Below, piece after piece: positions 10,902 to 40,900 of a stretch of 64,000 bases of DNA. The notes beneath the pieces were generated by a model. The model saw nothing but the letters and a program-made list of their open reading frames with translations, was not told the DNA's origin and searched no databases. The position numbers and the translations under genes are program-made. The DNA is from an uncultured Gammaproteobacteria bacterium. GTDB taxonomy: Bacteria; Patescibacteriota; Microgenomatia; UBA12405. Every line of letters starts with the position of its first letter. The stretch's first letter is position 1. The stretch covers positions 19,455 through 83,454 of the forward strand of contig CAYXDV010000003.1 in assembly GCA_964463925.1 (NCBI GenBank). The letters run 5' to 3'.

Positions 10902-10937
10902 ACAAGATGATAGAAAACTCTTGATAAAATAACAAGC

Positions 10938-20177: not shown

Positions 20178-22301
20178 TTACTGGTTATCAGAAGTTGTAT
20201 TATGTTGGATTAGGATTTCTCTTGGTTTGGCTCCATTGTTTGGACCAATAATTCCTGCCTGTTCTAATTCATCCAAGACACGAGCTGCTCTGGCATAGCC
20301 AAACTTCAAACGTCGTTGCAACAGAGAGGCGCTGGCTTTACCAGTTTCCTGGATAACTTTTATGGCAGCATCAAACATTGGATCTCGATCTTCCCCTTCG
20401 ACTGGTTCACCCAGTTGCACACGCTTGCCATTGTTCATTACAGATACTGATTGGTTGAGAATAGAAGTGTCGTAGTCTGGAGTCCGCTGAGATTTGATCT
20501 GATCGACTAGTCGAGTAATTTCCTTATCTGACAAAAAGCATCCTTGCATACGAACAGGTTTGGCCAGCTCTGGTGGAGTGTAGAGCATATCACCTTTGCC
20601 TAACAGTTTCTCAGCACCAGGTGAGTCAAGAATGACCCGAGAATCGGTCATACTGGAAACGGCAAAGGCCACACGAGTAGGAATATTTGCTTTGATTAGA
20701 CCAGTTAGAACATCTACAGAAGGCCGCTGAGTAGCCAAGACTAAATGGATACCGACTGCCCGGGCCATTTGAGCAATACGGACGATACTGTCTTCTACTT
20801 CGGAGGGAGCAAAAAGCATAATGTCAGCCAACTCATCAATTACAATTATGATATAAGGCATATTTTGAAATCCGGATATCTCGTGGAAAGATTCAATATT
20901 TTTTGCACCAACCTGAGCAAAATGCTTATAACGTCGATCCATTTCCTGAGTAGCCCATTTGAGGGCCGAGATAACCTTTTCAGGTTCAACAATTACTGGG
21001 GCGAGCAAATGAGGAATATCGTTGTAGGGTGTCAATTCCACACGCTTTGGATCGACCATAATAAAACGGACTTCGTCGGGGCTGGCACGGAAAAGAATGG
21101 TGGCAATCCAGGAATTAACACAGACTGATTTTCCGGAACCAGTTTGACCGGCAATTAAAACATGGGGCATTTTGGCAATATTAGCAATTCTTGGTTTTCC
21201 AGAAACATCGAGTCCAAGTGGAACGGCGATTTTGGATTTAACATCAACAAAGGCTTCTGATTCCAGAATTTTACGAATTGGTACAGTTTCCAGGCTACGA
21301 TTTGGAACTTCAATACCCACAAGCGATCGGCCTGGAATTGGGGCTTCAACCCGGATTTGGCCACCTGGAGCGGCCAGGGCCATGGCCAAATCATTACCCA
21401 AACTAACAATTTTTGCAAGCTTAGTACCCAGTGCAACTTCCAAAGCATACTGCGTAACCGAAGGACCATTGTTTACTTCTTTAACCCTGGCAGTAATACC
21501 AAAAGATTCCAAAGTTTGCTCAATAGTTTGGGCATTTTTCTTTACATCACCTCTATCGGCTTTGGTGCCTGGACTATTGTCAAACAAATCTAGACTTGGA
21601 TACTCCCAAGCCTGATTGTTCGAAGAAGATTTAGGTTTCAAATCTATTTCAGTCTGCAAGGGGACTGGTGGTTTTATTGGAGAGTTTAAAATTGGTTTTG
21701 TGCCAGTAATATAGTCATCCTTTTCATCTTTGACAAATTGAATTTCTTTTTTCTCAATTTTTGTTTTAGCCTTTAGGCTTTCTTTGGCAACTTTACTTAC
21801 ACGACCAAAAGTATATTTGTAGCAGGCTTGCAAAAAAGCCGAAACAATCTTGAAAACTTGGACTATATTTGTATCAAACAAAATTACAAAACCAATTAAG
21901 GCGAAGGACAAATAAACTAGAAATGCCGGAAAAGCAGACAATAAGTCGCTCAGATTTTGCCAAAAAAATAGACCAATTTGCCCTTGTCGAAGTAGGCCAA
22001 GCAAGGCAGAAAATAGAATGTGAAAACCAAAGAAAATATTTGCTTGTTTGAATGGTGAGTTAACTTTGGCAAAAATAAAACCAATTAAAATCAGCCAAAA
22101 GGGCACTAAAACAGACATTAAGCCAAATTTTGAAATCAAAAAGCCGTTAAAAGCTACGGGTATGTTTCCTGTACCTAAAAATGAATATACCGCAAAGATA
22201 GCCAAAAAAATGAACAAGAAAAAGAAAACAGTGTAAACTGTTTCATCTTTCACCTCTAGTTTTGGCAAACCAGGTGAAGCTTTTTTGGATTTTCTTGCCA
22301 T
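20178..22301 (-). CDS. ftsK: DNA translocase FtsK/SpoIIIE
   Basis: N-terminal polytopic TM region, then Walker A GQTGSGKS, Walker B VIDELAD, and a C-terminal gamma-domain winged helix. Confidence 0.92.
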   Translation of the reverse strand: MARKSKKASPGLPKLEVKDETVYTVFFFLFIFLAIFAVYSFLGTGNIPVAFNGFLISKFGLMSVLVPFWLILIGFIFAKVNSPFKQANIFFGFHILFSALLGLLRQGQIGLFFWQNLSDLLSAFPAFLVYLSFALIGFVILFDTNIVQVFKIVSAFLQACYKYTFGRVSKVAKESLKAKTKIEKKEIQFVKDEKDDYITGTKPILNSPIKPPVPLQTEIDLKPKSSSNNQAWEYPSLDLFDNSPGTKADRGDVKKNAQTIEQTLESFGITARVKEVNNGPSVTQYALEVALGTKLAKIVSLGNDLAMALAAPGGQIRVEAPIPGRSLVGIEVPNRSLETVPIRKILESEAFVDVKSKIAVPLGLDVSGKPRIANIAKMPHVLIAGQTGSGKSVCVNSWIATILFRASPDEVRFIMVDPKRVELTPYNDIPHLLAPVIVEPEKVISALKWATQEMDRRYKHFAQVGAKNIESFHEISGFQNMPYIIIVIDELADIMLFAPSEVEDSIVRIAQMARAVGIHLVLATQRPSVDVLTGLIKANIPTRVAFAVSSMTDSRVILDSPGAEKLLGKGDMLYTPPELAKPVRMQGCFLSDKEITRLVDQIKSQRTPDYDTSILNQSVSVMNNGKRVQLGEPVEGEDRDPMFDAAIKVIQETGKASASLLQRRLKFGYARAARVLDELEQAGIIGPNNGAKPREILIQHNTTSDNQ

Positions 22302-22414
22302 GTAATCAGTATAAACAGACTACCGAGTCAGTTCAACTGGATATGAAACTAAGCACATTGTTTTAAAAAGATTGATTGAAATACGGTAGATTTTCTTAGA
22401 ACTTAACAAGATAT

Positions 22415-22846
22415 TCATTTTTCTCTGGCAGATTTTATACGAGGACTGATTTTACAAAATTTCACACCACACATTTTGCACCCCAATTCCCCGTCTGGTT
22501 GGTTTATTAACAAAAAGTTTAGAGAACTATGTGAAGGTGGTACGTCTAATACAGCATTTACCAGTCTTCCTCCTAGATCAGATCCGGCTTCTAGCGGTCC
22601 TTTTCGAATTAATTGGTCACTTCCACCCCAGGCAGTACAAGTGCCTCCAATGGCAATTTGTCCCCCTTTGTTACCACCTTGTCTGGCATGAGGACATTTC
22701 TCTGGATGATCAGGGTTTTTACATTTACCTGAGAATAATATTTCTACACTCACTCTCCACAAACGATTACCTTCTTTGTAACCAAAACTAGCATTGGTTT
22801 TGTTTAGTCCAGATGGCCATTTAACACGATCAAATCCTTTTGGCAT
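22415..22846 (-). CDS. Hypothetical small Gly/Cys-rich protein with a weak NucB-like GFDRxxWP motif; locally elevated GC
   Basis: 143 aa; native-looking AT-rich codon usage. MPKGFDRVKWP resembles the GYDRDEWP block of secreted NucA/NucB DNases, but the N-terminal half of that fold is not present in frame. Gly-rich centre (GGNKGGQIAIGGTCTAWGG) and CxxC near the C-terminus (GCKMCGVKFC). Confidence 0.45.
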   Translation of the reverse strand: MPKGFDRVKWPSGLNKTNASFGYKEGNRLWRVSVEILFSGKCKNPDHPEKCPHARQGGNKGGQIAIGGTCTAWGGSDQLIRKGPLEAGSDLGGRLVNAVLDVPPSHSSLNFLLINQPDGELGCKMCGVKFCKISPRIKSAREK

Positions 22847-22859
22847 TTTTTATTTTAAC

Positions 22860-23040
22860 ATAACCTATAATTTATTTACTTAGTAGCTTTGGACGAAGAA
22901 GTAATTTCTACTGAGATAACCGACAGTTTCCTGCGACATTGGGTACAATGTGGCAGCTCGTAGCAATACCTCATGTCGGCGCCATCTCCTCGCGACTTAA
23001 TCGTTATGTGATGATCTAGCAAATAAAACACTACAAATAT
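22860..23040 (-). other. GC-rich intergenic region with nested inverted repeats; candidate structured 5' leader or small RNA upstream of ORF 22415..22846
   Basis: Longest non-coding stretch in the window (about 200 nt). Minus-strand reading ...GGCGCCGACAUGAGGUAUUGCUACGAGCUGCCACAUUGUACCCAAUGUCGCAGGAAACUGUCGGUUAUC... has CCGACA/UGUCGG long-range pairing enclosing a CACAUUG-UACC-CAAUGU hairpin. No tRNA T-loop motif is present. Confidence 0.25.
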
Positions 23041-23048
23041 GGTATGGG

Positions 23049-24473
23049 TTAGTAGCTTTGGGCAAAAAGCCAGGTGGTAGAACAGGGCTCTCCGGTTAGA
23101 AAATCTTTGCCTTTGATGGATTCTTGGTCAAGTGGCTGGCAGCGGCTAGTAGCTTTGGTTTCTTCTTTGATTTTGGCTTCTGACTCGGCAGTTTGGTTCC
23201 AAAAAACTTTAATAAAACCTCGGTGCTTTTGCATTATCTCTTTAAACTCATCATAGTTAGTTGCAAACCTAGTATTGTCATCTTGATATTTTTTAGCTTT
23301 GGCATACATCTCCTCATGTATTTGATCTAATAATAGTGGTAATTTGGTTTGTAAATCGGTAGCAGAAATCGATATTTTTTCTCCTGTATTGCGCTTAACT
23401 AGGGTAAATACATTTGCTTCGGCTTCTTTTTGGCCGATTTCTAATCGTAGCGGATAGCCCTCCAACTCAATTTGGTGAAGACGATAACCCAATGACTTAG
23501 TGAAATCAGAATCTATTTTTACTCTAAAATTGGATGATAATTTATTTTTTAATTCTTCTGACTTGGTAAGTAATTGAGGATCGTTTTTGATAGGGACAAT
23601 AACTATTTGGATGGGCGCTACACGAGGTGGTAAAACTAGACCTTTATCATCACCATGCATGAGTATAAGTGCTCCGATAGAGCGAGTAGAATAACCCCAG
23701 GAATTTTGCCAAACATATTTTTTCTGACCATCCTGGTCTTGAAAACCAACATTAAAAGTTTTGCTAAAATTTTGACCAAGGTCGTGGCTGGTACAGCTTT
23801 GAAGTGACTTGCCAGAAGGCATTAAAGATTCAAAAGTTAAGGTGGCATCAGCCCCAGCAAATTTTTCTGATTCTGATTTTTTGCCAACTATTCCCGGAAT
23901 TGCCAAAAGCTCGTTGTAGGTTTTTTCGTAAAGTCGAATAGCCCACAAAACCATTTCCCAGTTTTCTTCGGAGGTAGCATGGGCACAATGACCTTCCTGC
24001 CACAAAAATTCACTAGTACGCAAAAAAGGGATTGTTCTTTTTTCCCAACGAAGGACATTGTTCCACTGATTAATCAACATCGGCAAATCGCGATGAGACT
24101 GGATCCATTTGGAGTAGGATTCATACATTATTGTTTCTGAAGTTGGACGAATAACTAGTCGTTCAGTTAGCTCTTCACCACCACCGACCGTAACGTAGGC
24201 ACATTCAGGGGCAAAACCAGCCACATGTTGCTTTTCACGATGTAAAAAAGTTTCTGGGATTAATAGTGGAAAATAACCATTTTGGACACCTTTATCTTTT
24301 ATAAAACGATCCATAAACGACATAATATTTTCCCAAAGAGCATAGCCCCTTGGCATAATTATCATAGTTCCTTTGACTGGACCGTAATCGGCTAGTTTGG
24401 CTTGTTCAATTACAGAAACATACCAATCGGACAAATCTTGGGTTCTTTTTGGTAATTGATTTGCAAAAGCCAT
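23049..24473 (-). CDS. proS: Prolyl-tRNA synthetase (archaeal/eukaryote-like type without insertion editing domain)
   Basis: 474 aa; class II motifs; C-terminal Zn-binding-type tail ending ...TWLFAQSY. Confidence 0.92.
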   Translation of the reverse strand: MAFANQLPKRTQDLSDWYVSVIEQAKLADYGPVKGTMIIMPRGYALWENIMSFMDRFIKDKGVQNGYFPLLIPETFLHREKQHVAGFAPECAYVTVGGGEELTERLVIRPTSETIMYESYSKWIQSHRDLPMLINQWNNVLRWEKRTIPFLRTSEFLWQEGHCAHATSEENWEMVLWAIRLYEKTYNELLAIPGIVGKKSESEKFAGADATLTFESLMPSGKSLQSCTSHDLGQNFSKTFNVGFQDQDGQKKYVWQNSWGYSTRSIGALILMHGDDKGLVLPPRVAPIQIVIVPIKNDPQLLTKSEELKNKLSSNFRVKIDSDFTKSLGYRLHQIELEGYPLRLEIGQKEAEANVFTLVKRNTGEKISISATDLQTKLPLLLDQIHEEMYAKAKKYQDDNTRFATNYDEFKEIMQKHRGFIKVFWNQTAESEAKIKEETKATSRCQPLDQESIKGKDFLTGEPCSTTWLFAQSY

Positions 24474-24496: not shown

Positions 24497-26245
24497 TTAT
24501 TCTACCTCAATAATCAGCGGCAGAACCATTGGTTGACGGCCAGTTTTTTCGTAGATCACGGTTTCGACATGAGATTGGATTTGATCTTTTATGTATTCAA
24601 AATTGCTAGGTGTACCGGAATTTTCTTTGAATTTTAATTTGGCCTCATCCTTTAGATAGTTAATTAGATCAGTGTTTTCTTTAACAAAAACAAAACCGCG
24701 GGAAAGAACAATTGGCTCTTTGACCATGGCTCCGGTTTCAGCATTAACCAGCATAATAATGGTAAACATGCCTTCTTCAGCCAGGGCTTTTCGGTCGCGT
24801 AAAACTGTAGCTCCTACATCACCTACACCAAAACCATCAATTAGAACTTTTCTAAAAGGTATGATGGCACTTAAATCCACATTCTTTTCAGAATTAAAGG
24901 TGACAGTCTGATTTATATCCGGGCTAATAAGACGCGAGCTATCATAGCCCATGGTTTTGGCCATATCATGATAGGCACGGATATGTCTGTAATTTCCGCC
25001 AATTGGTAGTAAATATTGGGGACGGAGCATATTGATTAAAAGAGCATGTTCAGCTTGATAGCCATGGCCAGATACATGGACTTCCTTTTCACCGTAGACA
25101 ACTTCTACACCCATTTTAGAAAGAGTGTCGATCATAGTATGAATGGCAGAAACTGTTCCAGGAATGTAATCTGGGGAACTAAAAATTACTTTGTCTCCTG
25201 ATTTTATTTTTACCTGATGCTTACCCATAATCATTTTAGACAGAGCAGATTCAGGCTGACCGGCAAAACCAGCAACTAAAAACATCAACTTGTCATCGCC
25301 AAAATTTTTAACTTTGGAAACATCTACTAAATCTTGGTCTTTTATGTCCAAATATCCAAGTTCTTTAGCCAATTTAATAGCTTTATCGACACTAAATCCA
25401 ACAGTTACTATTTTTCTACCAGTACGCTTACCGTAAGTAATGGCCTGGCCCCAGCGGACAATGTTGCTACTAATTGTGGTCACAAAAACCCGTCCTTTGG
25501 CAGTTTTGATCTCGTGTTCGAAATTCTCGGCAATTGAGCGCTCGCTTGGGGAAAAACCTTCATGTTCGGCACCCAGAGAATCTGAGAGTAAACACAGAAC
25601 TCCATTGCTACCTACTCGACAAATATGCTGCAGATCAGCAAATTTTCCGTCCATTGGCAGGGTATCAAATTTAAAGTCAGAACCATGATATACAGTACCA
25701 ACTGGAGTAGTAATAGCAAAATGATGAGTGTCTGGAATACTGTGATTTACTAAAATTGGGTCGATTTTGAAAGGACCCTTTTCCATAATCTGACTGTGTT
25801 TGTATTCAATTAAATTGACCCTAATCTGAGCCTCGGCTAGCCGAGAGCTGATAAAAGCAACGGCTAATTTGGGGGCAAAAATTGGAATATTGGTTCCTAA
25901 AATAGGCATCATAAAGCGGACTGCCCCAATATGATCTTCGTGTCCGTGTGTTATGAAAATACCTAAGATGCGGTCTTTTTTGTCTTTTAAATATTCTGGA
26001 TCTGGGATAATTAAATCCACGCCGAAAATGTCAGTTTCCGGAAACCCGACTCCACAGTCGACAATAATAATTTGAGATTTATTGAAATCTCCGTTTGGGG
26101 CGTATTCATAGGCAAACATATTTTGAGTTACGTTGCCAAAACCACCCAGGGCTATAATGCGCAGAGCATCGCTTCCCTTGTTAAATGTTTTGATAAATTG
26201 TTTTGGTGCAGGTTGATACCTGTCGTTTTTCTTAGCTTGAAGCAT
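24497..26245 (-). CDS. rnj: Ribonuclease J (metallo-beta-lactamase/beta-CASP)
   Basis: HGHEDHIG motif, beta-CASP region and C-terminal domain; 582 aa. Confidence 0.92.
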   Translation of the reverse strand: MLQAKKNDRYQPAPKQFIKTFNKGSDALRIIALGGFGNVTQNMFAYEYAPNGDFNKSQIIIVDCGVGFPETDIFGVDLIIPDPEYLKDKKDRILGIFITHGHEDHIGAVRFMMPILGTNIPIFAPKLAVAFISSRLAEAQIRVNLIEYKHSQIMEKGPFKIDPILVNHSIPDTHHFAITTPVGTVYHGSDFKFDTLPMDGKFADLQHICRVGSNGVLCLLSDSLGAEHEGFSPSERSIAENFEHEIKTAKGRVFVTTISSNIVRWGQAITYGKRTGRKIVTVGFSVDKAIKLAKELGYLDIKDQDLVDVSKVKNFGDDKLMFLVAGFAGQPESALSKMIMGKHQVKIKSGDKVIFSSPDYIPGTVSAIHTMIDTLSKMGVEVVYGEKEVHVSGHGYQAEHALLINMLRPQYLLPIGGNYRHIRAYHDMAKTMGYDSSRLISPDINQTVTFNSEKNVDLSAIIPFRKVLIDGFGVGDVGATVLRDRKALAEEGMFTIIMLVNAETGAMVKEPIVLSRGFVFVKENTDLINYLKDEAKLKFKENSGTPSNFEYIKDQIQSHVETVIYEKTGRQPMVLPLIIEVE

Positions 26246-26330: not shown

Positions 26331-27389
26331 TTACCATTGTGGCAGAAAGTCTTTGATGTTTGATTCATCAACAATCACATAAGGTGCGCTGCCTTCAAAA
26401 ATTATCTTAGCAACTTTACGGCACAGCCCCTCTACATTTCGTTTTAAAGTACGTACTCCCGAATCAAACCCGAGTGGACGGACAATATTGGGCCAAACAG
26501 TATCTTTTATTTGAAGCTCGTTTGCATCGAGTCCAGTATCTTCCATGGCCCTGGGGAGTAGATAAAGTTTGGCAATACCAATTTTTTCTTCGTCGGTATA
26601 ACTAGGCATTTGGATAACTTCTAATCTATCCATAACGGCAGTGGCAATTCGAGTTGTATTGTTACAAGTTGCCACAAAAATGCAATTACTTAGATCAAAA
26701 GGATACTCTAAATAATGATCTTCAAAACGGTTGTTTTGTTCTGGATCCAAAAGTTCAACCAAAACGCCCATTATTGTATTTAGGGCTTCATCAGCCACCC
26801 GATCAATTTCGTCTAATAAAATAACTGGGTTGTTGTATCCGGCACGAGACAGTCCCTTGATAATCTGGCCTGGTTCGGCATTTGGATACTGTCTAGACTG
26901 GCCGCGCAAGTAGAGTGGATCACCCAAGCCTCCAAAGGGAATACGAATGAGCTGTCTGCCCATCATTTTGGCAATAGATTTGGCCATAGTGGTTTTCCCT
27001 GTTCCTACTAAGCCAACAAACAACAAAATTGGAGCACGTAAATGTTTTTCCTGATTACGATGTTTTTGCAGGGCCAAGGCCGATAAATACTCTAGCATGC
27101 GTTCTTTGACGGAATCTAAGCCATAGTGTTCTTCGTTTAGTTTTTCCCGAGCAAAATTTAGATCTAAAATATCCTGGGATTCTTTAAACCAAGGAAGGGA
27201 GACTATCCAATCCAAATAACGATTTACTTTTTGGTAATTTTCCCAAAAAGTAGCTTCTGACTTGGCATTAATTTCCAGCTGAGAAAAAATTTCTGCTAAT
27301 TTTTCTACCAAACCATCGGGCAATTTTACGCTTTGAGATTTCAAGCGTAGCTTGGCTATAGCCTGATCGATGGTTAAAACTTCGGACAT
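26331..27389 (-). CDS. Lon-like AAA+ ATPase lacking both the N-terminal LON domain and the C-terminal protease domain
   Basis: HYGLDSVKERMLEYLS..., PILLFVGLVGTGKTTMAKSIAKMMGRQLIRIPFGGLGD...LRGQSRQYPNAEPGQIIKGL...PVILLDEIDRV...IFVATCNN...MDRLEVIQMPSYTDEEKIGIAKLYL...GVRTLKRNVEGLCRKVA is co-linear with the Lon AAA+ module. The protein stops at 352 aa, where the protease domain would begin. Confidence 0.8.
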   Translation of the reverse strand: MSEVLTIDQAIAKLRLKSQSVKLPDGLVEKLAEIFSQLEINAKSEATFWENYQKVNRYLDWIVSLPWFKESQDILDLNFAREKLNEEHYGLDSVKERMLEYLSALALQKHRNQEKHLRAPILLFVGLVGTGKTTMAKSIAKMMGRQLIRIPFGGLGDPLYLRGQSRQYPNAEPGQIIKGLSRAGYNNPVILLDEIDRVADEALNTIMGVLVELLDPEQNNRFEDHYLEYPFDLSNCIFVATCNNTTRIATAVMDRLEVIQMPSYTDEEKIGIAKLYLLPRAMEDTGLDANELQIKDTVWPNIVRPLGFDSGVRTLKRNVEGLCRKVAKIIFEGSAPYVIVDESNIKDFLPQW

Positions 27390-27431
27390 TAAATTAGTAT
27401 GCGGATTTTTTTTAGATTTGGCAAATCCAAA

Positions 27432-27695
27432 TTATTTTCTAGGACTAGGTATACTATCGGCAATAACTGCTCCAACTGCTTTTGCAGCACTTGCCAAAAG
27501 AGAATATCTAACGCCATCAATGCCCATGCCTCTTACTGTAACTTCTACAACCTGACTACTACTCCAAGTTTCAGTAACTTCAGATGCACCCCCCAAACCT
27601 CTTACAATCGTAGTTCTACCACCTTCAGGTGGTGGCCCAAATTTCTCTGCGATATTCTGCCATGGATAAAGTACTTTTACATCTTTGCCTTTCAT
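27432..27695 (-). CDS. Hypothetical 87-aa protein translationally coupled to pnp (TAATG overlap)
   Basis: ATG overlaps the pnp stop by 1 nt. Gly/Ala-rich segment LLASAAKAVGAVIADS is faintly SpoVS/Alba-like, but function is unassigned. The opposite-strand ORF 27399..27860 looks non-coding. Confidence 0.5.
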   Translation of the reverse strand: MKGKDVKVLYPWQNIAEKFGPPPEGGRTTIVRGLGGASEVTETWSSSQVVEVTVRGMGIDGVRYSLLASAAKAVGAVIADSIPSPRK

Positions 27696-29950
27696 TATTG
27701 TTTGGTTTTTGAATTGGTAAAGGAGGCGCGGTTGGGAGCCTGGCGACGAGGAGCCGAAGCTGGGGGATGGAAATTGTCAAATTTTGGAGTAAATCCGCTG
27801 TGGCGTTCGCCTGCAAATTTGCGCTCTGTGCGCATTGGCGCAGGGCTGGTATTCGGCTGACCAATATGGGCAGCTTTAAACTCTGGAGCTGAGAGCTTGA
27901 TTTGATGATTGTCGTTAAAACCAGCAATGGTTACTTTTAGCTTGTCTCCTACTTTAATAATAGAGCTAACATCTTTGACAAAACCTGTAGCCATTTCAGA
28001 TATGTGAAGAAGAGCCTCTTGACCTGGCAAGAACTCGACAAAAGCACCATAGCTTTCTACACGCATTACTTCACCATCATATACTTCACCAATTTGTGGT
28101 TCTTTGATCATAGCTTTGATAGCTTCAACACAAGTTTCAACCATGGAGGTATCTAAGCCAGAAATAAAAGCCTGCCCTTGATCGTTAATATCAATTTGAA
28201 CACCATAGCGCTCCATTAACATTTTAATTGTTTTACCGCCGCTGCCAATTACTTCACCAATTTTGTCCTGGGGCAGCTCTAAAATAGAAATCTTTGGAGC
28301 ATGGGCTGCTAGAGTTGGTCTGGGTGAAGCTAGAGTTTTTTCCATGAGGTCTAGAATTTCAAATCTGGCAGTTTGCGATCTAGCAAGTGTTTGTTTGATC
28401 ATTTCCAAAGTTAGACCTGCGCGTTTGATGTCTAGTTGAATGGCTGTAATTCCTTTTCTAGTACCAGTAATTTTAAAATCCATATCACCAAAGTGATCTT
28501 CGATACCAGCAATGTCAGTTAAAAGAACAAAATCCTGATCACTAGTGCTGACCATTCCAGTAGAAATACCGGCAACATGGGCTGAAATTGGTACTCCAGC
28601 ATCCATTAGGGACATAGTGGAGCCACAGGTACTGGCCATAGAGCTAGAACCGTTTTGTGATAGAACTTCACTAGTTAAAACAATGGTGTATGGAAACTGA
28701 TTTGTATTTGGCAAAACGGCCCAAAGAGCTTTTTCAGCCAAGGCTCCATGACCTATTTCACGACGACCAGGACGGCCAGTTCGTCCGGGTTGCCCAGTAG
28801 AAAATGGCATAGCTGAGTAAAAATGCATATAGTTTTTTTCTTGTTCACCTTGGCTATTTTGCATGTATAAACGCTCTTCTAAAGTGCTTAAACTTACATT
28901 AGTAATAGCCTGGGTTAAACCGCGCTGAAAAAAGGCAGAACCATGAGTACCAGGTAAAATACCAGTTTCAATGTTAAGAGGTCGAATTTGGTCAATTTTC
29001 CTACCATCAAAACGCCAGCCAGTCATCATTTTTTGCTTAAAATTAAGCTCCAAAATTTCTAGAGCCGATGCAACAACTTGATTTTCTGTATAGGTACCCT
29101 CGGCAATTTCAGTAGTCATAATGGTTTTGGCAGCGGTGATGAATTTTTCCTCAGCATGGTTGTGAGCTCCATCTTGACCTCCATTTAAAAACTCAGATAC
29201 TTCAGTTTTTAACTTTTTTTCTAAAAGTGAGGATAGTTTATTGTCAGATTCAGCTAAAACCATTTTTGGTTTGCCGAGTTCTTTGGCAATGGCTGCAATT
29301 TGGCTGTTTATGGATTGGGAAGTGGAAACAGCCAGGCTAATGGCCTCAAACATAGTGTCGTTGTCGATGATTTTGCCATCAGCTTCAATCATATTTACAC
29401 CCCAAGGACCGGTGCAAACTAATAGGTCTAGATCACTTTCTTTTAATTCGGAAATAGTCGGATTGGCAATAAGGGTTTTGTCACTTGATCTGGCAATACG
29501 CACGGCACTAACTGGACCATTGAACGGGATGTCGGAAACTGCAAGAGCCACGGCAGCAGACAAAAAGGCAATAACTACATGATCAACATCGGCATCACTA
29601 CTCATTAAAGTAGCAATAACTTGGGTTTCTATTTTAAAATTTGATGGAAATAATGGTCTGATTGAACGATCTATGATTCTACTCTCTAGGACATCGGCAT
29701 CAGACCCGCCAATATCACGTTTGGACCATTTGCCACCTTTAATCTGGGCACCAGCATATAATTTGTGAATAAAATCAACGCTTAAAGGGAAATAATCTTT
29801 GGAACTATCTTCCTGGCCGCAAACTACAGTTGATAAAACCATACAGTTTCCAAGGCTCGCCATAACCGAACCGTTGGTTTGAGGTGCATATTTATTAAAA
29901 GTAAGGGTTACGGTTTTGCCGCTACCCAGAGTGATGGTTTTTTGAATCAT
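27695..29950 (-). CDS. pnp: Polyribonucleotide nucleotidyltransferase (PNPase) with an extended basic C-terminal tail
   Basis: Two RNase PH domains, KH and S1 domains; 751 aa with a roughly 55-aa Pro/Arg-rich extension after S1. Confidence 0.95.
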   Translation of the reverse strand: MIQKTITLGSGKTVTLTFNKYAPQTNGSVMASLGNCMVLSTVVCGQEDSSKDYFPLSVDFIHKLYAGAQIKGGKWSKRDIGGSDADVLESRIIDRSIRPLFPSNFKIETQVIATLMSSDADVDHVVIAFLSAAVALAVSDIPFNGPVSAVRIARSSDKTLIANPTISELKESDLDLLVCTGPWGVNMIEADGKIIDNDTMFEAISLAVSTSQSINSQIAAIAKELGKPKMVLAESDNKLSSLLEKKLKTEVSEFLNGGQDGAHNHAEEKFITAAKTIMTTEIAEGTYTENQVVASALEILELNFKQKMMTGWRFDGRKIDQIRPLNIETGILPGTHGSAFFQRGLTQAITNVSLSTLEERLYMQNSQGEQEKNYMHFYSAMPFSTGQPGRTGRPGRREIGHGALAEKALWAVLPNTNQFPYTIVLTSEVLSQNGSSSMASTCGSTMSLMDAGVPISAHVAGISTGMVSTSDQDFVLLTDIAGIEDHFGDMDFKITGTRKGITAIQLDIKRAGLTLEMIKQTLARSQTARFEILDLMEKTLASPRPTLAAHAPKISILELPQDKIGEVIGSGGKTIKMLMERYGVQIDINDQGQAFISGLDTSMVETCVEAIKAMIKEPQIGEVYDGEVMRVESYGAFVEFLPGQEALLHISEMATGFVKDVSSIIKVGDKLKVTIAGFNDNHQIKLSAPEFKAAHIGQPNTSPAPMRTERKFAGERHSGFTPKFDNFHPPASAPRRQAPNRASFTNSKTKQ

Positions 29951-29969: not shown

Positions 29970-30251
29970 CTATTTCTTTAAACCAAGTTCTTTGATTAAC
30001 TTGGAATATCTGTCCTTAGCGTGCTCTTGCATATAGCGAAGCAAACGGCGACGTTTGGCAATTTTGGTTAAAAGTCCGCGTTTGCCTGGCTGATCGTGTT
30101 TATTTTCTTGTAAATGTTTGGACAAACGGTCGATCTCTTCAGATAGTAGAGCTACTTGAATTTCTGGTGAACCAGTATCACCCTTGGCTTGGGCAAATTT
30201 AGCAATAATTTTTGCTTTGTCTGTTTGTGGTAAGGCCATCTTAAAAGGCAA
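29970..30251 (-). CDS. rpsO: 30S ribosomal protein S15
   Basis: 93 aa; ...GDTGSPEIQVALLSEEIDRLSKHL...RGLLTKIAKRRRLLRYM... is typical S15; conserved position upstream of pnp. Confidence 0.93.
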   Translation of the reverse strand: MPFKMALPQTDKAKIIAKFAQAKGDTGSPEIQVALLSEEIDRLSKHLQENKHDQPGKRGLLTKIAKRRRLLRYMQEHAKDRYSKLIKELGLKK

Positions 30252-36567: not shown

Positions 36568-37422
36568 TTATATATCTAGCTTTTCGAGAGCCGATTTGGT
36601 TTCACGAGAAATAGAAGTTGGGATAGTAACCAATAGACGAATATACATATCCCCTTTGCGCTTGGAGCGCACATCTGGGATACCTTCACCCCTGACTCGA
36701 ACCATAGTATTTGGTTGAGTGCCGGCTTTGACTTTTAGTTTTAGTGGCTTGCTTAGAGTAGGAACTTCGATAGTGTCACCTAAAATGGCTTGTTTTATGG
36801 TTATTTCATGGTTTATATACAAATCATTGCCATCTCGTTGGAAGATTTTGTCTGGTAAAACATCGATGTATAAAATAAAATCTTCAAAACGAATTTGTTG
36901 CCCGTCAGAGATACCTGCTGGAATTTTTATTTGTCGTTTCTTTCCATCTAAATTAACTTCTTTTTCTACACCCCTGGCGGCATCCATAAAGCTAATTTGG
37001 ATTTTGTAGCGAGGTAAGCTGCGACTAGATGAACCAGAAAAACCACCACCAAAAAATTGTTCAAAAATATCAAAAGGATTGCTAAAACCGCCAAAATCGA
37101 AATCTGCACCAAATGGATTTTCGCCGCCGCTTGACCAAGAATAAGTAAATGGCCCCTGCTGGTTGGTATAAGTATGTCCACCAAAACCACCGGAAGCCCC
37201 ATCAAAAGCTGCGTGTCCAAATTGGTCATAAGCCTGCTTTTTTTGAGAGTCGGAAAGAATTTCGTAGGCTTCGTTGATTTCTTTAAAATGTTCTTCAGCT
37301 CCCGCTTCTTTGTTGCGATCTGGGTGATATTTTAGGGCTAGTTTGCGATAGGCTGATTTGATTTCATCAGCAGATGATGTTTTGCCTATGCCTAAAATTT
37401 CGTAATAATCGCGCTTGGACAT
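36568..37422 (-). CDS. dnaJ: DnaJ-family co-chaperone (J domain + G/F region + C-terminal substrate-binding domains, no Zn-finger repeats; CbpA/type II-like)
   Basis: [34 protein letters not shown] domain, Gly/Phe-rich linker, CTD; follows dnaK. Confidence 0.85.
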
Positions 37423-37428
37423 AATAAA

Positions 37429-37707
37429 TTAAAGTTGTTTTTCTAGTTTTTTAATTTTTCTGAGACGAAAGAAATTGCCAACCCAACAGTACAAAGTATA
37501 AGCAGTGGCCATGATGGTTATCACCATATTTATATCGAAACTTGGAATATGTGTCTGCGGATTTCTAATTAACCAAATGCTACTAAAGTATCCCCAAATA
37601 GTTAATAGACCTATCGCGAAAGGAAATACGGCTATAGAATTTAGAAAATGAATAATTACATCTAGCCTGAGCTGTTGGATTTGAAATTCAAGATTTTTGT
37701 TTTTCAT
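37429..37707 (-). CDS. Small two-TM membrane protein, hypothetical
   Basis: 92 aa with two hydrophobic segments; lies between dnaK and dnaJ. Confidence 0.4.
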   Translation of the reverse strand: MKNKNLEFQIQQLRLDVIIHFLNSIAVFPFAIGLLTIWGYFSSIWLIRNPQTHIPSFDINMVITIMATAYTLYCWVGNFFRLRKIKKLEKQL

Positions 37708-37718
37708 AATTTATTTTA

Positions 37719-37742
37719 AGAGACGCGCGGGTGCGCGTCTCT
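37719..37742. terminator. Perfect GC-rich hairpin AGAGACGCGC-GGGT-GCGCGTCTCT between dnaK and the downstream small ORF; candidate partial terminator or mRNA-stability stem-loop
   Basis: 10-bp perfect stem with a 4-nt loop seen directly. There is no strong U-tract on the minus-strand side, so termination efficiency is uncertain. Confidence 0.4.
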
Positions 37743-37749
37743 GGATTTG

Positions 37750-39645
37750 TTAGTTAACAACCTCCCCTTCCTGAACGTCATTTTTGTCGGATTTGTTTTC
37801 TTCGGACCTCGGAGTTTCGCCTTCTGGCTTTTTACCTGCTTCAGACTGTTGGTACATAGCTGAACCAATAGTTTGCAAGATCTGGCTTAGATCATTAGAA
37901 GCCTTGTCATAGTCCTCTTTTTTCAAATCAGTTTTGGCGTGTACTTCTTTGGCTTTTTTAATTTCCTCTTCTAGCTTAGCCTTGTCCTCGGCTTTAGCCT
38001 TGTCGCCATAATCTTTGAGGGTCTTTTCGCCACTAAAGATGGTTGCGTCAAGCTGATTTCTGGACTCAACTATTAGCCTTTTGGCTTCATCTTCTTTGGC
38101 ATGCAAGTCGGCTTCAGCTTTCATTTTTTCTACCTCCTCTTTACTTAGGTTAGTGGCGTTTTGGATAGTAATTTTTTGCTCTTTGTTGGTAGCTTTGTCT
38201 TTGGCTGAGACTGAAAGTATGCCGTTGCTATCGATATCAAAAGTAACTTCAATTTGGGGCATACCACGAGGTGCTGGAGGTATACCATCAAGAACAAAAC
38301 GACCAAGTGATTTGTTGTCTGCAGCCATTGGCCGCTCACCCTGAAGTACATTGATTTCTACCTGGGTTTGGTTGTCACTATAAGTGGAAAATACTTGTGA
38401 CTTTTTGGTTGGCACAGTGGTGTTTTTTTCAATCAGAGGGGTCCTGACTCCACCTGCTGTTTCAATGCCTAATGTTAGCGGAGTTACATCCAGAAGGACA
38501 ACATCCTTAACATCACCAGCCAAGACACCACCTTGAACAGCAGCACCAATAGCTACTACTTCGTCGGGGTTAACGGTGCTATTTAGATCTTTGCCAAAAA
38601 AGTTCTTAACAGTTTGCTGAACTAAAGGCATACGTGTCATGCCCCCGACCATAACAATATCGGTAATCTCTGATTTACTGACTTTGGCATCTTTTAAACA
38701 CTGTTCGACTGGTTTTAACGATTTTTGAACCAGGTCGTCAACTAGCTTCTCGAGTTGAGTTCTGGTAAATTTGACGGTTAAGTGTAGGGCTTGTCCGTCT
38801 TTTTGAGTAATAAATGGTAGATTGATTTCGGTTTCTACTGAATTACTGAGTTCAATTTTGGCTTTTTCTGCAGCCTCGCGAACGCGCTGTAGAGCTTGTG
38901 GATCTTTGGACAAATCAACTCCATTCTGTTTTTCGAAATCGGTTAACAACCATTCAGCAATACGGTGATCAAAATCATCCCCTCCCAAAAAGGTATCTCC
39001 GTTTGTGGCTTTGACTTCAAAAACTCCGTCGCCAATTTCTAGAATAGAAATATCAAAAGTGCCACCTCCCAAGTCGTAAACAGCAATGGTTCCTTTTTTC
39101 TTTTTATCCAAACCATAGGCTAGGGCAGCAGCGGTTGGCTCATTAACAATTCTTAATACATTCAGGCCAGAAATTTCTCCTGCCTGTTTGGTAGCCTGAC
39201 GTTGACTATCGTCAAAATAAGCAGGTACAGTAATTACGGCATCAGTAATTTTGTCACCGATAAATTTTTCAGCGTCAGTTTTACATTTTTGTAAAATCTT
39301 AGCCGAAATTTCTTGGGGAGTATAAACTTTACCATCGATTTCTACACAAGCCATGTTGTCTTTGCCAGCAACTATTTTATAGGGGGCAATTTTTTTGGTT
39401 TTTTCAACTTCTGGATCATCGTAGCGTCGACCCATGAGTCGTTTGATGCTAAAAATAGTGCTTTTGGGGTCTAAAACCATTTGGCGTTTGGCCAAATCTC
39501 CGACCAATTTTTTTAGTGGGTTAACAATAGATGGAATAGTGTTGCGGCCTTCGGAAGTTACTACTACCTTAGCCTGTCCACCCTCCATAAAAGCAACACA
39601 AGAGTTGGTGGTACCTAAATCGATACCGATGATTTTGTTTGGCAT
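37750..39645 (-). CDS. dnaK: Chaperone DnaK (Hsp70)
   Basis: [21 protein letters not shown] and [14 protein letters not shown] motifs; 631 aa. Confidence 0.97.
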
Positions 39646-39659
39646 ATATTTTTTATTAA

Positions 39660-40133
39660 TTAATTAACTTTTCCCACGACAACTTCTGCAGGACGCAAAA
39701 TTTCGTCGTGTAATTTATAACCTATTTTGTGGACTACTAAAACCTGGTTTTCAGGTCCAGGCTGGGTACCAATGCAGGACATAGTGGACTCATCGTAAAC
39801 TTGATCCTGGGGGTTAATTTCTTCGATTCCTTCAGATTTTAGAACCTGCCTTAATTTGTCTAGAGCAATCTGCAAACCAGGATCAGATAAATGTTGATTG
39901 GCTAAATTCAGATCATCTAAAACTGGCAGAATTTTATTGAGCATACTAGCTGTGGCTAGGGTGATAAGCATTTGGCGCTGGGCTTCTATCCGTTTTTCCA
40001 GATTAGCATAATCAGCCAGAGATCGGGCCAATTTATCCTGTAGATCATGAATTTGAGTATGTAAGGTTTCAAGGGCAGGCGGGGTTTGGTTTTGAGGTTG
40101 AAGTGGTTTGGTTTTGATTTTAAGATTGGACAT
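39660..40133 (-). CDS. grpE: Nucleotide exchange factor GrpE
   Basis: Coiled-coil N-part ([20 protein letters not shown]) and C-terminal beta domain; operon position between hrcA and dnaK. Confidence 0.9.
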
Positions 40134-40135
40134 AA

Positions 40136-40900
40136 TTAGTGGGTAATTTGAGTAATTAAATTGGCAAAATAATCAACTAAGGGAACTACTTGCGGATAGC
40201 GGGAGCGAGCAGGACCAACAATACCAATAACACCTCGATGTGGACCAGCACTATACCGTTGATAGATGAAGCTACATGGTTCTAAATGTTGCATACCAAG
40301 CTCTTCTCCAATCAGTAAATGAACAAGCTGTTCGCTACCATAAACTTCATTGGCGACATTTAGAGTTCTTTGAATTAGATCAAACCAATATTGCTGGTTG
40401 TCCAGAAGAGAAAGAATGGTTCTAGTAACATCGATGTCAAAAAATTCTGGTTGCTCTAATAAATTTGAGGCACCAGAATAACTAATGGCACCTTGTTCAG
40501 TAGTAGAAATGGCCATGGATCGAGTTTGACGGGCAAGTTCACGTGTGGCTTCTGTTAAAAGCTTTTCAAACTCGTTGCGATAATCCCACATTTTTTCTTT
40601 AGTACCAATCTCTTCGGAAATTGATAGAGTTTTGGGGGTCATCAAGTTTCTAACATAATACTTAAGTCCCATAGAAGTCGGCATGCGACCAGAACTAAGA
40701 TGTGACTTTTTTAAAAATCCCTGGCGAGTTAATTCACTCATTTCATTACGAATAGTTGCCGAAGAACAGCCAAGTGTAAACTTGTGCTCAAGTTTTTCTG
40801 AACCAACAGGTTCGGCAGTTTCGATAAATTCTTCTACAATACATTTTAAAATTTGTACTTGTCGTTGGGTTATATCAGGCATATTAGCAGAATAATACAC
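40136..40900 (-). CDS. hrcA: Heat-inducible transcription repressor HrcA (true start probably the internal ATG MPDITQRQ... near 40882)
   Basis: ITQRQVQILKCIVEEFIETAEPVGSEKL...SSATIRNEM matches the HrcA N-terminal winged helix. At 248-254 aa it is shorter than typical HrcA. Confidence 0.85.
   Translation of the reverse strand: MYYSANMPDITQRQVQILKCIVEEFIETAEPVGSEKLEHKFTLGCSSATIRNEMSELTRQGFLKKSHLSSGRMPTSMGLKYYVRNLMTPKTLSISEEIGTKEKMWDYRNEFEKLLTEATRELARQTRSMAISTTEQGAISYSGASNLLEQPEFFDIDVTRTILSLLDNQQYWFDLIQRTLNVANEVYGSEQLVHLLIGEELGMQHLEPCSFIYQRYSAGPHRGVIGIVGPARSRYPQVVPLVDYFANLITQITH

What the first reader, a model, noticed from the sequence alone, without database searches (positions are those of the whole stretch)
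26331..27695. Lon AAA+ module without N-domain or protease domain, preceded by an 87-aa ORF coupled to pnp
ORF 26331..27389 aligns co-linearly with the Lon AAA+ ATPase (HYGL..VKERiLEYLa, GPiL.fVGppGvGKTs, Walker B ILLDEIDRV, sensor/arginine-finger region GVRTLKRNVEGLCRKVA). It ends exactly where the Lon serine-protease domain should begin and has only a short N-terminal region. No protease domain is encoded nearby. A standalone Lon-derived unfoldase is uncommon. Directly upstream, an 87-aa ORF has its ATG overlapping the pnp stop (TAATG), implying co-translation with PNPase. It has a faint SpoVS/Alba-like Gly/Ala-rich segment. The two may form an RNA- or protein-remodelling module attached to the rpsO-pnp operon.
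Basis: partly seen in the sequence, partly recalled or inferred. Interest (0 to 1): 0.55.

Follow-up and report, generated by a model that had tools for sequence, protein, structure and literature searches.

The report
Protease-less Lon ATPase of Microgenomates bacteria
This gene encodes only the ATP-burning motor of the Lon protease, without its substrate-binding or cutting domains; the same stand-alone form sits next to the pnp gene across a whole group of tiny uncultured bacteria, while the 87-residue gene in front of it occurs only in this strain's closest relatives.

Summary
ORF 26331-27389 (minus strand, 352 aa) is a LonA-type AAA+ module: a three-helix bundle, the alpha/beta ATPase domain and the Lon lid. 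It matches positions 253-567 of the 795-position Lon model and nothing else. It is not a truncation. More than 300 distinct homologues, all 343-395 aa, stop at the same point. They come from Microgenomates (Shapirobacteria, Woesebacteria, Levybacteria, Gottesmanbacteria). All ATPase catalytic residues are invariant, but the substrate-gripping pore loops are remodelled. I found no Lon protease domain or ClpP in about 78 kb of this genome, or within 10 kb of the gene in the related loci fetched.

The order rpsO-pnp-LonAAA-(UDG)-rnj-ftsK is conserved. However, Lon-AAA has its own -10-like box 6 nt before the ATG in 71 of 83 loci, which predicts a leaderless transcript. Operon coupling to pnp is therefore not needed.

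The 87-aa ORF does overlap the pnp stop (TAATG). It has one homologue among 1.84 billion representatives, is absent from the next-closest relatives, and lies in an insertion hot spot. It shows no SpoVS/Alba signal. It is probably a fast-evolving orphan gene and not part of a conserved module.

Verdict: an undescribed protease-less variant of Lon, of moderate interest. Its partner and substrate are unknown.

The parts
26331..27389 (-). Stand-alone LonA-type AAA+ ATPase, 352 aa (three-helix bundle + alpha/beta domain + Lon lid)
   Evidence: Pfam AAA + Lon_lid. TIGR00763 positions 253-567/795, E 4e-95. PDB LonA up to E 2e-78. AlphaFold2 pLDDT 89.4, pTM 0.85. More than 300 homologues of 343-395 aa.
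27135..27389 (-). N-terminal helical region (residues 1-85), equivalent to the C-terminal part of the LonA HI(CC) domain (three-helix bundle)
   Evidence: Aligns with Lon residues about 248-330. Predicted helices 7-18, 25-43, 45-64 and 77-87. Matches the start of the E. coli Lon 235-584 fragment, PDB 6N2I (PMC6722904).
26988..27014 (-). Walker A, GLVGTGKTT
   Evidence: K132 and T133 are invariant in 308/308 family members.
26868..26906 (-). Pore-loop-1 region, RGQSRQYPNAEPG (canonical Lon: RGHRRTY[IV]G[AS]MPG)
   Evidence: The Tyr position is Y 120, F 98, H 60, R 15 of 308. The next residue is P/A/S, never the usual I/V. An acidic residue follows.
26802..26819 (-). Walker B, LLDEID
   Evidence: D193 and E194 are invariant in 308/308.
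26760..26801 (-). Pore-loop-2 region replaced: RVADEALNTIMGVL instead of K-M-S-S-D-[FWM]-R-G-D-P
   Evidence: The aromatic position is Ala in 277/308. Predicted as part of helix 200-214.
26625..26627 (-). Arginine finger R255 (acts across the subunit interface)
   Evidence: Invariant in 308/308. Aligns with the LonA DRME motif.
26451..26453 (-). Sensor-2 arginine R313 in GVRTLKR
   Evidence: Invariant in 308/308.
26331..26348 (-). Conserved C-terminal end FLPQW + stop, where the Lon protease domain would start
   Evidence: F-[LIM]-P is conserved. A terminal W is present in 182/308. The Levybacteria branch ends one residue earlier. pLDDT is low at the tail.
27396..27424 (-). Promoter-like element TTGCCA-17-CATACT ending 6 nt before the Lon-AAA ATG (predicted leaderless transcript)
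   Evidence: Nearly identical in L002, although the ORF just upstream is only about 50% identical. A TAnnnT box ends 4-10 nt before the ATG in 71/83 relatives against a 13% background. An SD-like motif is present in only 3/83.
27432..27695 (-). 87-aa lineage-specific ORF; its ATG overlaps the pnp stop (TAATG)
   Evidence: The only homologue is a 93-aa ORF in L002/L003. It is absent in L005, L085, L087 and L088. The frame is kept open and amino-acid identity is 40%, against 19.5% under neutral simulation.
27695..29950 (-). PNPase (pnp), 751 aa, conserved upstream neighbour
   Evidence: RNase_PH x2, KH and S1 domains. Lies upstream of Lon-AAA in nearly all loci that reach that far.
24497..26245 (-). 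RNase J, conserved downstream neighbour, with its own TTGTCA-16-TATTAT box

Best explanation
ORF 26331-27389 is an intact, vertically inherited gene for a protease-less derivative of LonA. It keeps only the three-helix bundle and the AAA+ module.

Shown:
- The domain content.
- The family-wide stop at the AAA+/protease boundary.
- Invariance of all ATP-binding and ATP-hydrolysis residues.
- The conserved position between pnp and rnj across Microgenomates.

Inferred:
- It still assembles into a ring and hydrolyses ATP. The invariant arginine finger only matters at a subunit interface.
- It works as an autonomous ATP-driven protein remodeller (chaperone-like or weak unfoldase), not as part of a protease.
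- Its pore loops are remodelled ([Y/F/H]-[P/A/S]-[D/E]-A-E in loop 1, no aromatic in loop 2). This suggests a different, probably narrower, way of gripping substrate than Lon's processive threading.
- It is transcribed from its own promoter as a leaderless mRNA, so its link to pnp is one of gene order.

The 87-aa ORF upstream is a separate, recent, fast-evolving orphan gene. It was inserted at a junction that accepts many different insertions. It is probably translated by coupling to pnp, and the Lon-AAA family does not need it.
For: Domain identity.

Not a truncation or artefact:
- The best 120 hits of two searches are all 348-395 aa, at 69-95% identity to their queries.
- All 84 genome-scan and contig loci give ORFs of 343-374 aa ending ...F[LI]P.W.

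ATPase competence: K132, T133, D193, E194, N243, R255 and R313 are invariant in 308/308.

No protease nearby:
- A validated E. coli Lon P-domain query (Pfam Lon_C, E 2e-92) and a ClpP query find nothing in the 64-kb window plus the fetched loci, 1.4 Mb in all.
- Pfam scans of the window ORFs and the flanks show no Lon_C.

Own promoter.

Synteny.

Small ORF not conserved.

Small ORF probably coding: only 1.2% of neutral simulations stay stop-free, and none of 20,000 reach 40% amino-acid identity.

Related biochemistry: the E. coli Lon 235-584 fragment, the same domain set, packs as an open helical hexamer in crystals (PMC6722904).
Against: - No biochemical data exist.
- Isolated Lon AAA+ modules are not known to be active unfoldases. 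In LonA the protease ring and the N-terminal region contribute to oligomerisation (PMC6722904).
- The pore-loop-1 aromatic residue is kept in 71% of members and is Tyr in this protein, so classical threading into an unlinked peptidase is not excluded.
- I could not scan whole genomes for a separate Lon protease domain.
- About 70% identity across the Shapirobacteria/Woesebacteria-type members implies a specific, constrained interaction that 'general chaperone' does not explain.
- The promoter and leaderless call rests on sequence motifs only.
Confidence: 0.55

Rival explanations
1. Split Lon or two-component protease. The AAA+ ring docks onto a peptidase encoded elsewhere in the genome and feeds it unfolded substrates, as HslU does with HslV or ClpX with ClpP. 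The peptidase could be a stand-alone S16 Lon domain or another self-compartmentalising peptidase, such as the ClpP-like SDH-type protease at 12084-13163.
For: - The pore-loop-1 aromatic is kept in most members (Y/F in 218/308).
- The extreme C-terminus F-[LIM]-P-x-(W) is conserved and predicted flexible. It recalls the C-terminal docking tails of HslU and the proteasomal ATPases (my own knowledge, not tested).
- A ClpP-fold SDH-type protease is in the window.
Against: - No Lon_C or ClpP lies within 10 kb in any of the related loci or in about 78 kb of this genome.
- The terminal Trp is missing in 40% of the family.
- The pore-loop-2 aromatic required in MtaLonA (PMC8503904) is lost.
- The SDH protease is 13 kb away, inside a separately conserved alaS-ruvX-mltG block.
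Confidence: 0.2
2. RNA-decay accessory. The ATPase works with PNPase and/or RNase J, for example by remodelling RNA-protein complexes or regulating these nucleases. This would be the first reader's RNA-remodelling module, without the 87-aa protein.
For: pnp is the immediate upstream neighbour in nearly all loci spanning 52-93% identity (median gap 46 nt), and rnj follows downstream. PNPase here carries an unusual Pro/Arg-rich tail of about 64 aa that could act as a docking segment.
Against: - The same block also keeps proS, ftsK and often a UDG gene in order, so the order looks inherited and not functional.
- From my own knowledge, rpsO-pnp ... rnj ... ftsK is also a neighbourhood in Firmicutes and Actinobacteria, which have no such ATPase.
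- Lon-AAA has its own promoter-like box, and some relatives have a hairpin after pnp.
- The remodelled pore loop is acidic, which is a poor fit for RNA.
Confidence: 0.12
3. Decaying remnant. The gene is a truncated pseudogene of a full-length lon, or an assembly artefact, and the 87-aa ORF is a chance open frame in a spacer.
For: The small ORF evolves at close to the neutral rate: identity by codon position is 0.48/0.54/0.45, against a third-position baseline of 0.55-0.58. It has no ribosome-binding or promoter signal and no database family.
Against: - For Lon-AAA this is excluded. There are hundreds of same-length orthologues at about 70% identity with invariant catalytic residues.
- For the small ORF, the frame is open in both genomes while the antisense frame is not. 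Amino-acid identity of 40% was never reached in 20,000 neutral simulations.
Confidence: 0.05

Closest known systems
LonA protease (endopeptidase La; E. coli, B. subtilis, M. taiwanensis), specifically its AAA+ module and the proteolytic fragment EcLon(235-584), PDB 6N2I
   Same: Co-linear over the three-helix bundle, alpha/beta domain and lid. About 44% identity to B. subtilis LonA. Same Walker A/B, sensor-1, Arg-finger and sensor-2 positions. Domain limits are almost the same as the 6N2I fragment.
   Different: A natural stand-alone gene with no LON N-domain and no S16 protease domain. Walker A is GLVGTGKTT, not GPPGVGKTS. Pore loop 1 is [YFH]-[PAS]-[DE]-A-E, not Y-[IV]-G-[AS]-M. The pore-loop-2 RGDP segment and its aromatic residue are lost. 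The whole-protein score of 320 bits is far below the family cut-off of 608.
LonC (Meiothermus taiwanensis MtaLonC) and LonBA (B. subtilis)
   Same: Variants of the Lon architecture that dropped or degraded one Lon function (PMC3391209, PMC13069640, PMC9569914, listed).
   Different: These keep the protease domain. LonC has lost ATPase activity, and LonBA lacks the long N-terminal region. The present family is the reverse case: the ATPase is kept and the protease is lost. The 2022 survey states that all Lons carry both ATPase and protease domains in one chain (PMC9569914).
HslU and ClpX (stand-alone AAA+ partners of HslV and ClpP, the same HCLR clade)
   Same: A single AAA+ module encoded without a protease domain. 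A conserved C-terminal segment could act as a docking element (resemblance from my own knowledge).
   Different: No partner peptidase gene is adjacent, whereas hslVU and clpPX are usually operons. Sequence similarity is weak (ClpX E 0.015). No I-domain, zinc-binding domain or IGF loop.
ClpB/Hsp104 disaggregases
   Same: Protease-free AAA+ remodellers. The LonA HI(CC) + AAA+ region has been argued to be related to ClpB (PMC6722904).
   Different: One AAA+ ring, not two. No M-domain coiled coil. The pore loops are not canonical.

Membership tests
LonA protease (TIGR00763 / MEROPS S16) | AAA+ module with the Lon-type lid domain | tested here: met
   Pfam AAA E 8e-19 and Lon_lid E 7e-10. lon model positions 253-567, E 4e-95.
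LonA protease (TIGR00763 / MEROPS S16) | C-terminal S16 protease domain with a Ser-Lys dyad (Pfam Lon_C) | tested here: not met
   The ORF ends at model position 567/795 and RNase J starts 85 nt later. A validated Lon_C query finds nothing in the window or the fetched loci.
LonA protease (TIGR00763 / MEROPS S16) | N-terminal LON substrate-binding domain and full HI(CC) coiled coil | tested here: not met
   The protein starts at lon model position 253. There is no LON domain hit.
LonA protease (TIGR00763 / MEROPS S16) | Whole-protein score above the curated cut-off | tested here: not met
   319.8 bits against a cut-off of 608.
Active AAA+ ATPase (ring-forming) | Walker A Lys/Thr, Walker B Asp-Glu, sensor-1 Asn, trans Arg finger, sensor-2 Arg | tested here: met
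   All seven residues are invariant in 308/308 family members and are present in the window protein.
Active AAA+ ATPase (ring-forming) | Hexamer formation and ATP hydrolysis | not testable with these tools
   Only a monomer model could be made. Fold searches on that model failed because it was no longer stored.
AAA+ polypeptide translocase / unfoldase | Pore-loop-1 aromatic-hydrophobic pair (Lon Tyr397/398 followed by Ile/Val) | tested here: inconclusive
   The window protein has Tyr168 followed by Pro. In the family this position is Y 120, F 98, H 60, R 15 of 308, and the next residue is P/A/S.
AAA+ polypeptide translocase / unfoldase | Pore-loop-2 aromatic (Trp431 in MtaLonA, required for degradation; PMC8503904) | tested here: not met
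   The position is Ala in 277/308 and the RGDP segment is replaced.
Two-component AAA+ protease (HslUV / ClpXP type) | Partner peptidase gene linked to the ATPase gene | tested here: not met
   No Lon_C or ClpP within 10 kb in the related loci. Genome-wide absence could not be tested.
rpsO-pnp operon member | Conserved co-transcription or translational coupling with pnp | tested here: inconclusive
   Adjacency is conserved. However, there is a -10-like box 6 nt before the ATG in 71/83 loci and a hairpin after pnp in some. No transcript data.
SpoVS / Alba-like small nucleic-acid-binding protein (87-aa ORF) | Detectable sequence or fold similarity | tested here: not met
   No hit in Pfam, NCBIfam, PHROGs or PADLOC. 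The AlphaFold2 model has pLDDT 62.7, and the best Foldseek match has E 0.04 to unrelated folds.
Conserved partner of Lon-AAA (87-aa ORF) | Co-occurrence with Lon-AAA across relatives | tested here: not met
   Present only in the window and L002/L003. Absent in 80+ other loci.
Anti-phage defence ATPase (e.g. BREX BrxL, IetA) | Specific match to a defence-system model and a defence-island context | tested here: not met
   Only generic AAA matches (best is DolB at E 3.5e-12, against E 4e-95 for lon). The context is housekeeping genes.

The most novel reading that the evidence does not exclude
In Microgenomates, Lon has been converted into a dedicated ATP-driven ring that docks, through its conserved C-terminal F-L-P-x-W tail and acidic pore loops, onto a non-Lon partner. 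The partner could be the ring-shaped PNPase encoded next door or an unlinked ClpP-fold peptidase. This would be a two-component machine of a kind not described so far, and it would be the only Lon-derived activity left in these reduced genomes.
Probability: 0.1. Interest if true: 0.8.

Novelty: new variant of a known kind. Interest (0 to 1): 0.45.

Why it matters
Lon is treated as the textbook case of an AAA+ protease whose motor and protease are fused in one chain. A 2022 survey of the family says all Lons have both (PMC9569914). Here a whole class of the Candidate Phyla Radiation keeps only the motor. It is under strong purifying selection: about 70% identity within the Shapirobacteria/Woesebacteria-type group, more than 50% across the family, and invariant catalytic residues.

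That raises three testable questions:
- What can a Lon motor do without its protease?
- How does it assemble without the protease ring?
- How do these minimal cells handle protein quality control?

Databases currently label these proteins 'ATP-dependent Lon protease' (JGI) or 'AAA family ATPase' (NCBI). The first label wrongly implies proteolysis and could distort metabolic reconstructions of these organisms.

Tried and rejected
1. A structured RNA in place of the 87-aa ORF. Rfam found nothing at gathering or E <= 1, and the folding z-score was +0.96. Rejected.
2. The antisense 153-aa ORF 27399-27860 as the real gene. It is open for 102 codons in the window but only 59 in L002, and it overlaps the pnp 3' end. 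Rejected.
3. Distant homologues of the 87-aa ORF.
   - The exhaustive search gave two extra hits. Both are artefacts: P0122 is a translated CRISPR-like repeat array and P0124 is an RTX-type repeat protein.
   - A two-sequence profile found nothing further in the loci.
4. Structure-based annotation.
   - The fold search of the Lon-AAA model failed three times ('no such model').
   - The small-protein model was of low confidence and matched nothing.
5. A defence-system reading. PADLOC gave only generic AAA hits.
6. Literature on a protease-less Lon, or on Lon in CPR, Patescibacteria or Microgenomates. Six searches found nothing relevant.
7. The terminal Trp as a universal docking residue. I weakened this after the Levybacteria branch was added, because only 182/308 end in W.
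8. Intrinsic terminator and promoter scans of the region gave counts no higher than shuffled sequence. Only the conserved -10 box next to the start codons stood out.
Full report
**What is there.** All genes in this part of the window are on the minus strand. In order they are:
- rpsO (29970-30251)
- pnp (27695-29950, 751 aa)
- an 87-aa ORF (27432-27695)
- a 352-aa ORF (26331-27389)
- RNase J (24497-26245)
- ProRS (23049-24473)
- FtsK (20178-22301)

The ATG of the 87-aa ORF overlaps the pnp stop by one base (CAATAATGAAA). RNase J starts 85 nt after the stop of the 352-aa ORF.

**Identity of the 352-aa protein.**
- It matches Pfam AAA (E 8e-19) and the Lon-specific lid domain (E 7e-10).
- It matches the NCBIfam LonA model TIGR00763 at E 4e-95, but only over model positions 253-567 of 795. 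The score of 320 bits is against a whole-protein cut-off of 608.
- Against solved structures the best hits are all LonA. B. subtilis 3M6A gives E 2e-78. Residues 248-577 of the 793-aa M. taiwanensis enzyme also align. So does the E. coli fragment 6N2I, which covers almost exactly the same span.
- An AlphaFold2 model built on 71 family sequences is confident (pLDDT 89.4, pTM 0.85). It shows an N-terminal helical bundle, a five-stranded alpha/beta core and a helical lid.
- The protein is therefore the LonA three-helix bundle plus AAA+ module and nothing else. There is no LON N-domain and no S16 protease domain.

**It is not a truncation.**
- The two homology searches (this protein, and a divergent member from L082) each returned about 8,000 proteins at E <= 1e-10. 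The best 120 of each were all 348-395 aa, at 69-95% identity to their query.
- Named sources are Shapirobacteria, Woesebacteria, Levybacteria, Microgenomates and 'Patescibacteria group'.
- A scan of one genome per species found 315 genomes with a relative. I fetched the best 80.
- In every locus the ORF ends at the same place...N-[IV]-K-x-F-[LIM]-P-x-(W)-stop.
- Across 308 distinct sequences, the Walker A Lys/Thr, Walker B Asp-Glu, sensor-1 Asn, Arg finger and sensor-2 Arg are invariant.
- Mean column identity among 71 Shapirobacteria/Woesebacteria-type members is 78%.
- This is a gene under strong purifying selection. The invariant trans-acting arginine finger argues that it still works as an oligomeric ATPase (inference).

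**What differs from Lon.** The two axial loops that grip substrate in LonA are remodelled. These are Tyr397 of pore loop 1 and Trp431 of pore loop 2 in MtaLonA, and both are required for degradation (PMC8503904).
- Pore loop 1 reads R-G-Q-S-R-x-[Y/F/H/R]-[P/A/S]-[D/E]-A-E-P-G, where Lon has R-G-H-R-R-T-Y-[I/V]-G-[A/S]-M-P-G.
- The aromatic position is Y 120, F 98, H 60, R 15 of 308. The window protein has Tyr168-Pro169.
- In pore loop 2 the S-S-D-[F/W/M]-R-G-D-P segment is replaced by A-D-[D/E]-A-[L/R]-N-[T/S]-I. Ala stands at the aromatic position in 277/308. The segment is predicted to be part of a helix.
- Classical processive threading is therefore doubtful, though not excluded.

**Protease elsewhere?**
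- I wrote out the E. coli Lon protease domain from memory and checked it against Pfam (Lon_C, E 2e-92).
- tblastn and phmmer with this query, and with E. coli ClpP, found nothing in the window or the fetched loci, 1.4 Mb in total.
- Pfam scans of essentially all window ORFs showed no Lon_C, ClpP or HslV. The annotated flanks beyond the window ends showed none either.
- The only protease-like gene is a ClpP-fold SDH-type serine protease at 12084-13163, 13 kb away in a different conserved block.
- I could not search whole genomes. A distant partner peptidase remains possible.

**Context.**
- The order rpsO-pnp-LonAAA-rnj-(proS)-ftsK is kept in nearly all loci that extend far enough, down to 52% Lon-AAA identity.
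- The median gap between pnp and Lon-AAA is 46 nt.
- This does not show an RNA-specific module:
  - Thirty relatives carry a family-4 uracil-DNA glycosylase between Lon-AAA and rnj.
  - The block also keeps tRNA synthetase and cell-division genes.
  - From my own knowledge, rpsO-pnp ... rnj ... ftsK is an old neighbourhood in Firmicutes and Actinobacteria.
- Lon-AAA also has its own promoter-like signal:
  - 71 of 83 loci have a TAnnnT box (consensus TATACT) ending 4-10 nt, mostly 6 nt, before the ATG. The background is 13%.
  - Only 3 of 83 have a Shine-Dalgarno-like motif.
  - The window has TTGCCA-17-CATACT-6-ATG. This stretch is nearly identical in the close relative L002, while the DNA just upstream has diverged to about 50% identity.
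  - Three relatives have a perfect hairpin between the pnp stop and this box.
  - The same arrangement precedes 18 of 45 window genes, including rnj, ftsK, alaS and proS.
- I infer leaderless, individually promoted transcripts. No transcript data were available.

**The 87-aa ORF.**
- It has no match in Pfam, NCBIfam, PHROGs or PADLOC.
- The word-indexed search found only itself.
- An exhaustive HMMER search of 1.84 billion representatives found one real homologue. This is a 93-aa ORF (43% identity) at the same position in L002/L003, whose Lon-AAA is 93% identical. It also gave two repeat-driven artefacts.
- In relatives with Lon-AAA at 78-82% identity, pnp is followed directly by Lon-AAA.
- The junction is an insertion hot spot. 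24 of 80 loci carry unrelated ORFs there.
- Between the window and L002, identity by codon position is 0.48/0.54/0.45. This is close to the third-position baseline of 0.55-0.58 in flanking genes.
- Even so, the frame is open in both genomes (88 and 96 codons) and the antisense frame is not. Short motifs persist (GPPP, GRT, GMG).
- In a neutral simulation to the same divergence, only 1.2% of sequences stayed stop-free. None of 20,000 reached the observed 40% amino-acid identity; the mean was 19.5%.
- The RNA-structure z-score is +0.96.
- The single-sequence model is weak (pLDDT 62.7) and matches no fold, so nothing points to SpoVS or Alba.
- I conclude it is probably (about 60%) a young, fast-evolving orphan protein, possibly translated by coupling to pnp. 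It is not a conserved partner of the ATPase.

**Mechanism.**
- My preferred reading (confidence 0.55) is an autonomous, ring-forming, Lon-derived ATPase that remodels proteins without degrading them. It is expressed from its own promoter.
- Rivals:
  - A split protease with an unlinked peptidase (0.20).
  - An accessory to PNPase and RNase J (0.12).
  - A decaying remnant (0.05). This is excluded for the ATPase.
- The conserved C-terminal F-L-P-x-(W) tail is predicted flexible. It could be a docking element. However, the terminal Trp is absent in 40% of the family, so I treat this as a lead only.

**Comparison and novelty.**
- The closest known object is the LonA AAA+ module. Its nearest experimental counterpart is the proteolytic fragment EcLon(235-584), which packs as an open helical hexamer in crystals (PMC6722904).
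- Known Lon variants (LonB, LonBA, LonC) all keep the protease domain. A 2022 survey states that all Lons contain both domains in one chain (PMC9569914).
- Six literature searches found no description of a protease-less Lon or of Lon in these phyla.
- Databases label the family 'AAA family ATPase' or, misleadingly, 'ATP-dependent Lon protease'.
- I rate it a new variant of a known kind with moderate interest (0.45). The gene family is real, widespread and uncharacterised. The proposed two-gene module and the operon attachment are not supported.

Noticed in passing
window 12084-13163 (-): A 359-aa protein with a ClpP-like SDH-type serine protease domain (PF01972, E 2e-11). It is preceded by TATACT-N6-ATG. 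It is the only protease-like gene found in the window.
   Followed up: partly
window 10386-11159 (-): An ORF whose C-terminus matches Pacifastin_I / VWC / TIL-type cysteine-rich inhibitor domains (E 2e-8), which is unusual for a bacterium. Its 5' part overlaps a MiaB-like radical-SAM gene on the plus strand (10938-12056), so the true start is probably further downstream.
   Followed up: no
window 22302-23048: A gap of about 750 nt between ProRS and FtsK. It holds a 143-aa ORF (22415-22846) with no family match and no Rfam hit. It is not conserved in the 93%-identical relative L002, which has two different ORFs there.
   Followed up: partly
window, upstream of 18 of 45 genes (e.g. ftsK 22301, alaS 19304, proS 24473, rnj 26245): A -10-like TAnnnT box ends 4-10 nt before the start codon (background 13%). 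SD-like motifs precede only 5 of 45 genes. This suggests that leaderless mRNAs are common in this organism.
   Followed up: partly
window 27695-27890 (-), C-terminal end of pnp: PNPase carries a Pro/Arg-rich tail of about 64 aa after the S1 domain, in a locally GC-rich stretch (0.53 against about 0.39).
   Followed up: no
loci L006-L083, between Lon-AAA and rnj (e.g. L006 11186-11761): A family-4 uracil-DNA glycosylase gene (Pfam UDG, E 1e-36) sits between Lon-AAA and rnj in 30 relatives. It is missing in the window, where the gap is 85 nt.
   Followed up: yes
loci L010-L079, pnp/Lon-AAA junction: 24 of 80 loci carry unrelated insertions at this junction. They include DprA-like proteins of 171-175 aa, a 222-aa protein, and a pair in L034/L078 that looks like a toxin-antitoxin pair with an HTH partner.
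   Followed up: partly
L085, L088, L005, just after the pnp stop: Perfect inverted repeats (e.g. GTAGAGACGCATTGCAATGCGTCTCTAC) lie between pnp and the Lon-AAA -10 box. They may be a 3' stem-loop or terminator for pnp.
   Followed up: no
record titles of loci L005-L084: Many related MAG records are titled 'uncultured Gammaproteobacteria', 'Candidatus Methanoperedens' or 'Clostridia bacterium', yet they share the Microgenomates gene order and protein family. These labels look wrong.
   Followed up: no
protein P0122 (library of representatives): A 1,981-aa 'protein' made of 29 copies of a translated CRISPR-like repeat (FNPRPRVGGD...). It is a spurious gene call that produced a false strong hit to the 87-aa ORF.
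   Followed up: yes
window 36568-40900 (-): An hrcA-grpE-dnaK-dnaJ chaperone cluster lies about 10 kb upstream, followed by nusA-infB. The ATPase therefore sits in a long run of housekeeping genes in conserved order.
   Followed up: partly
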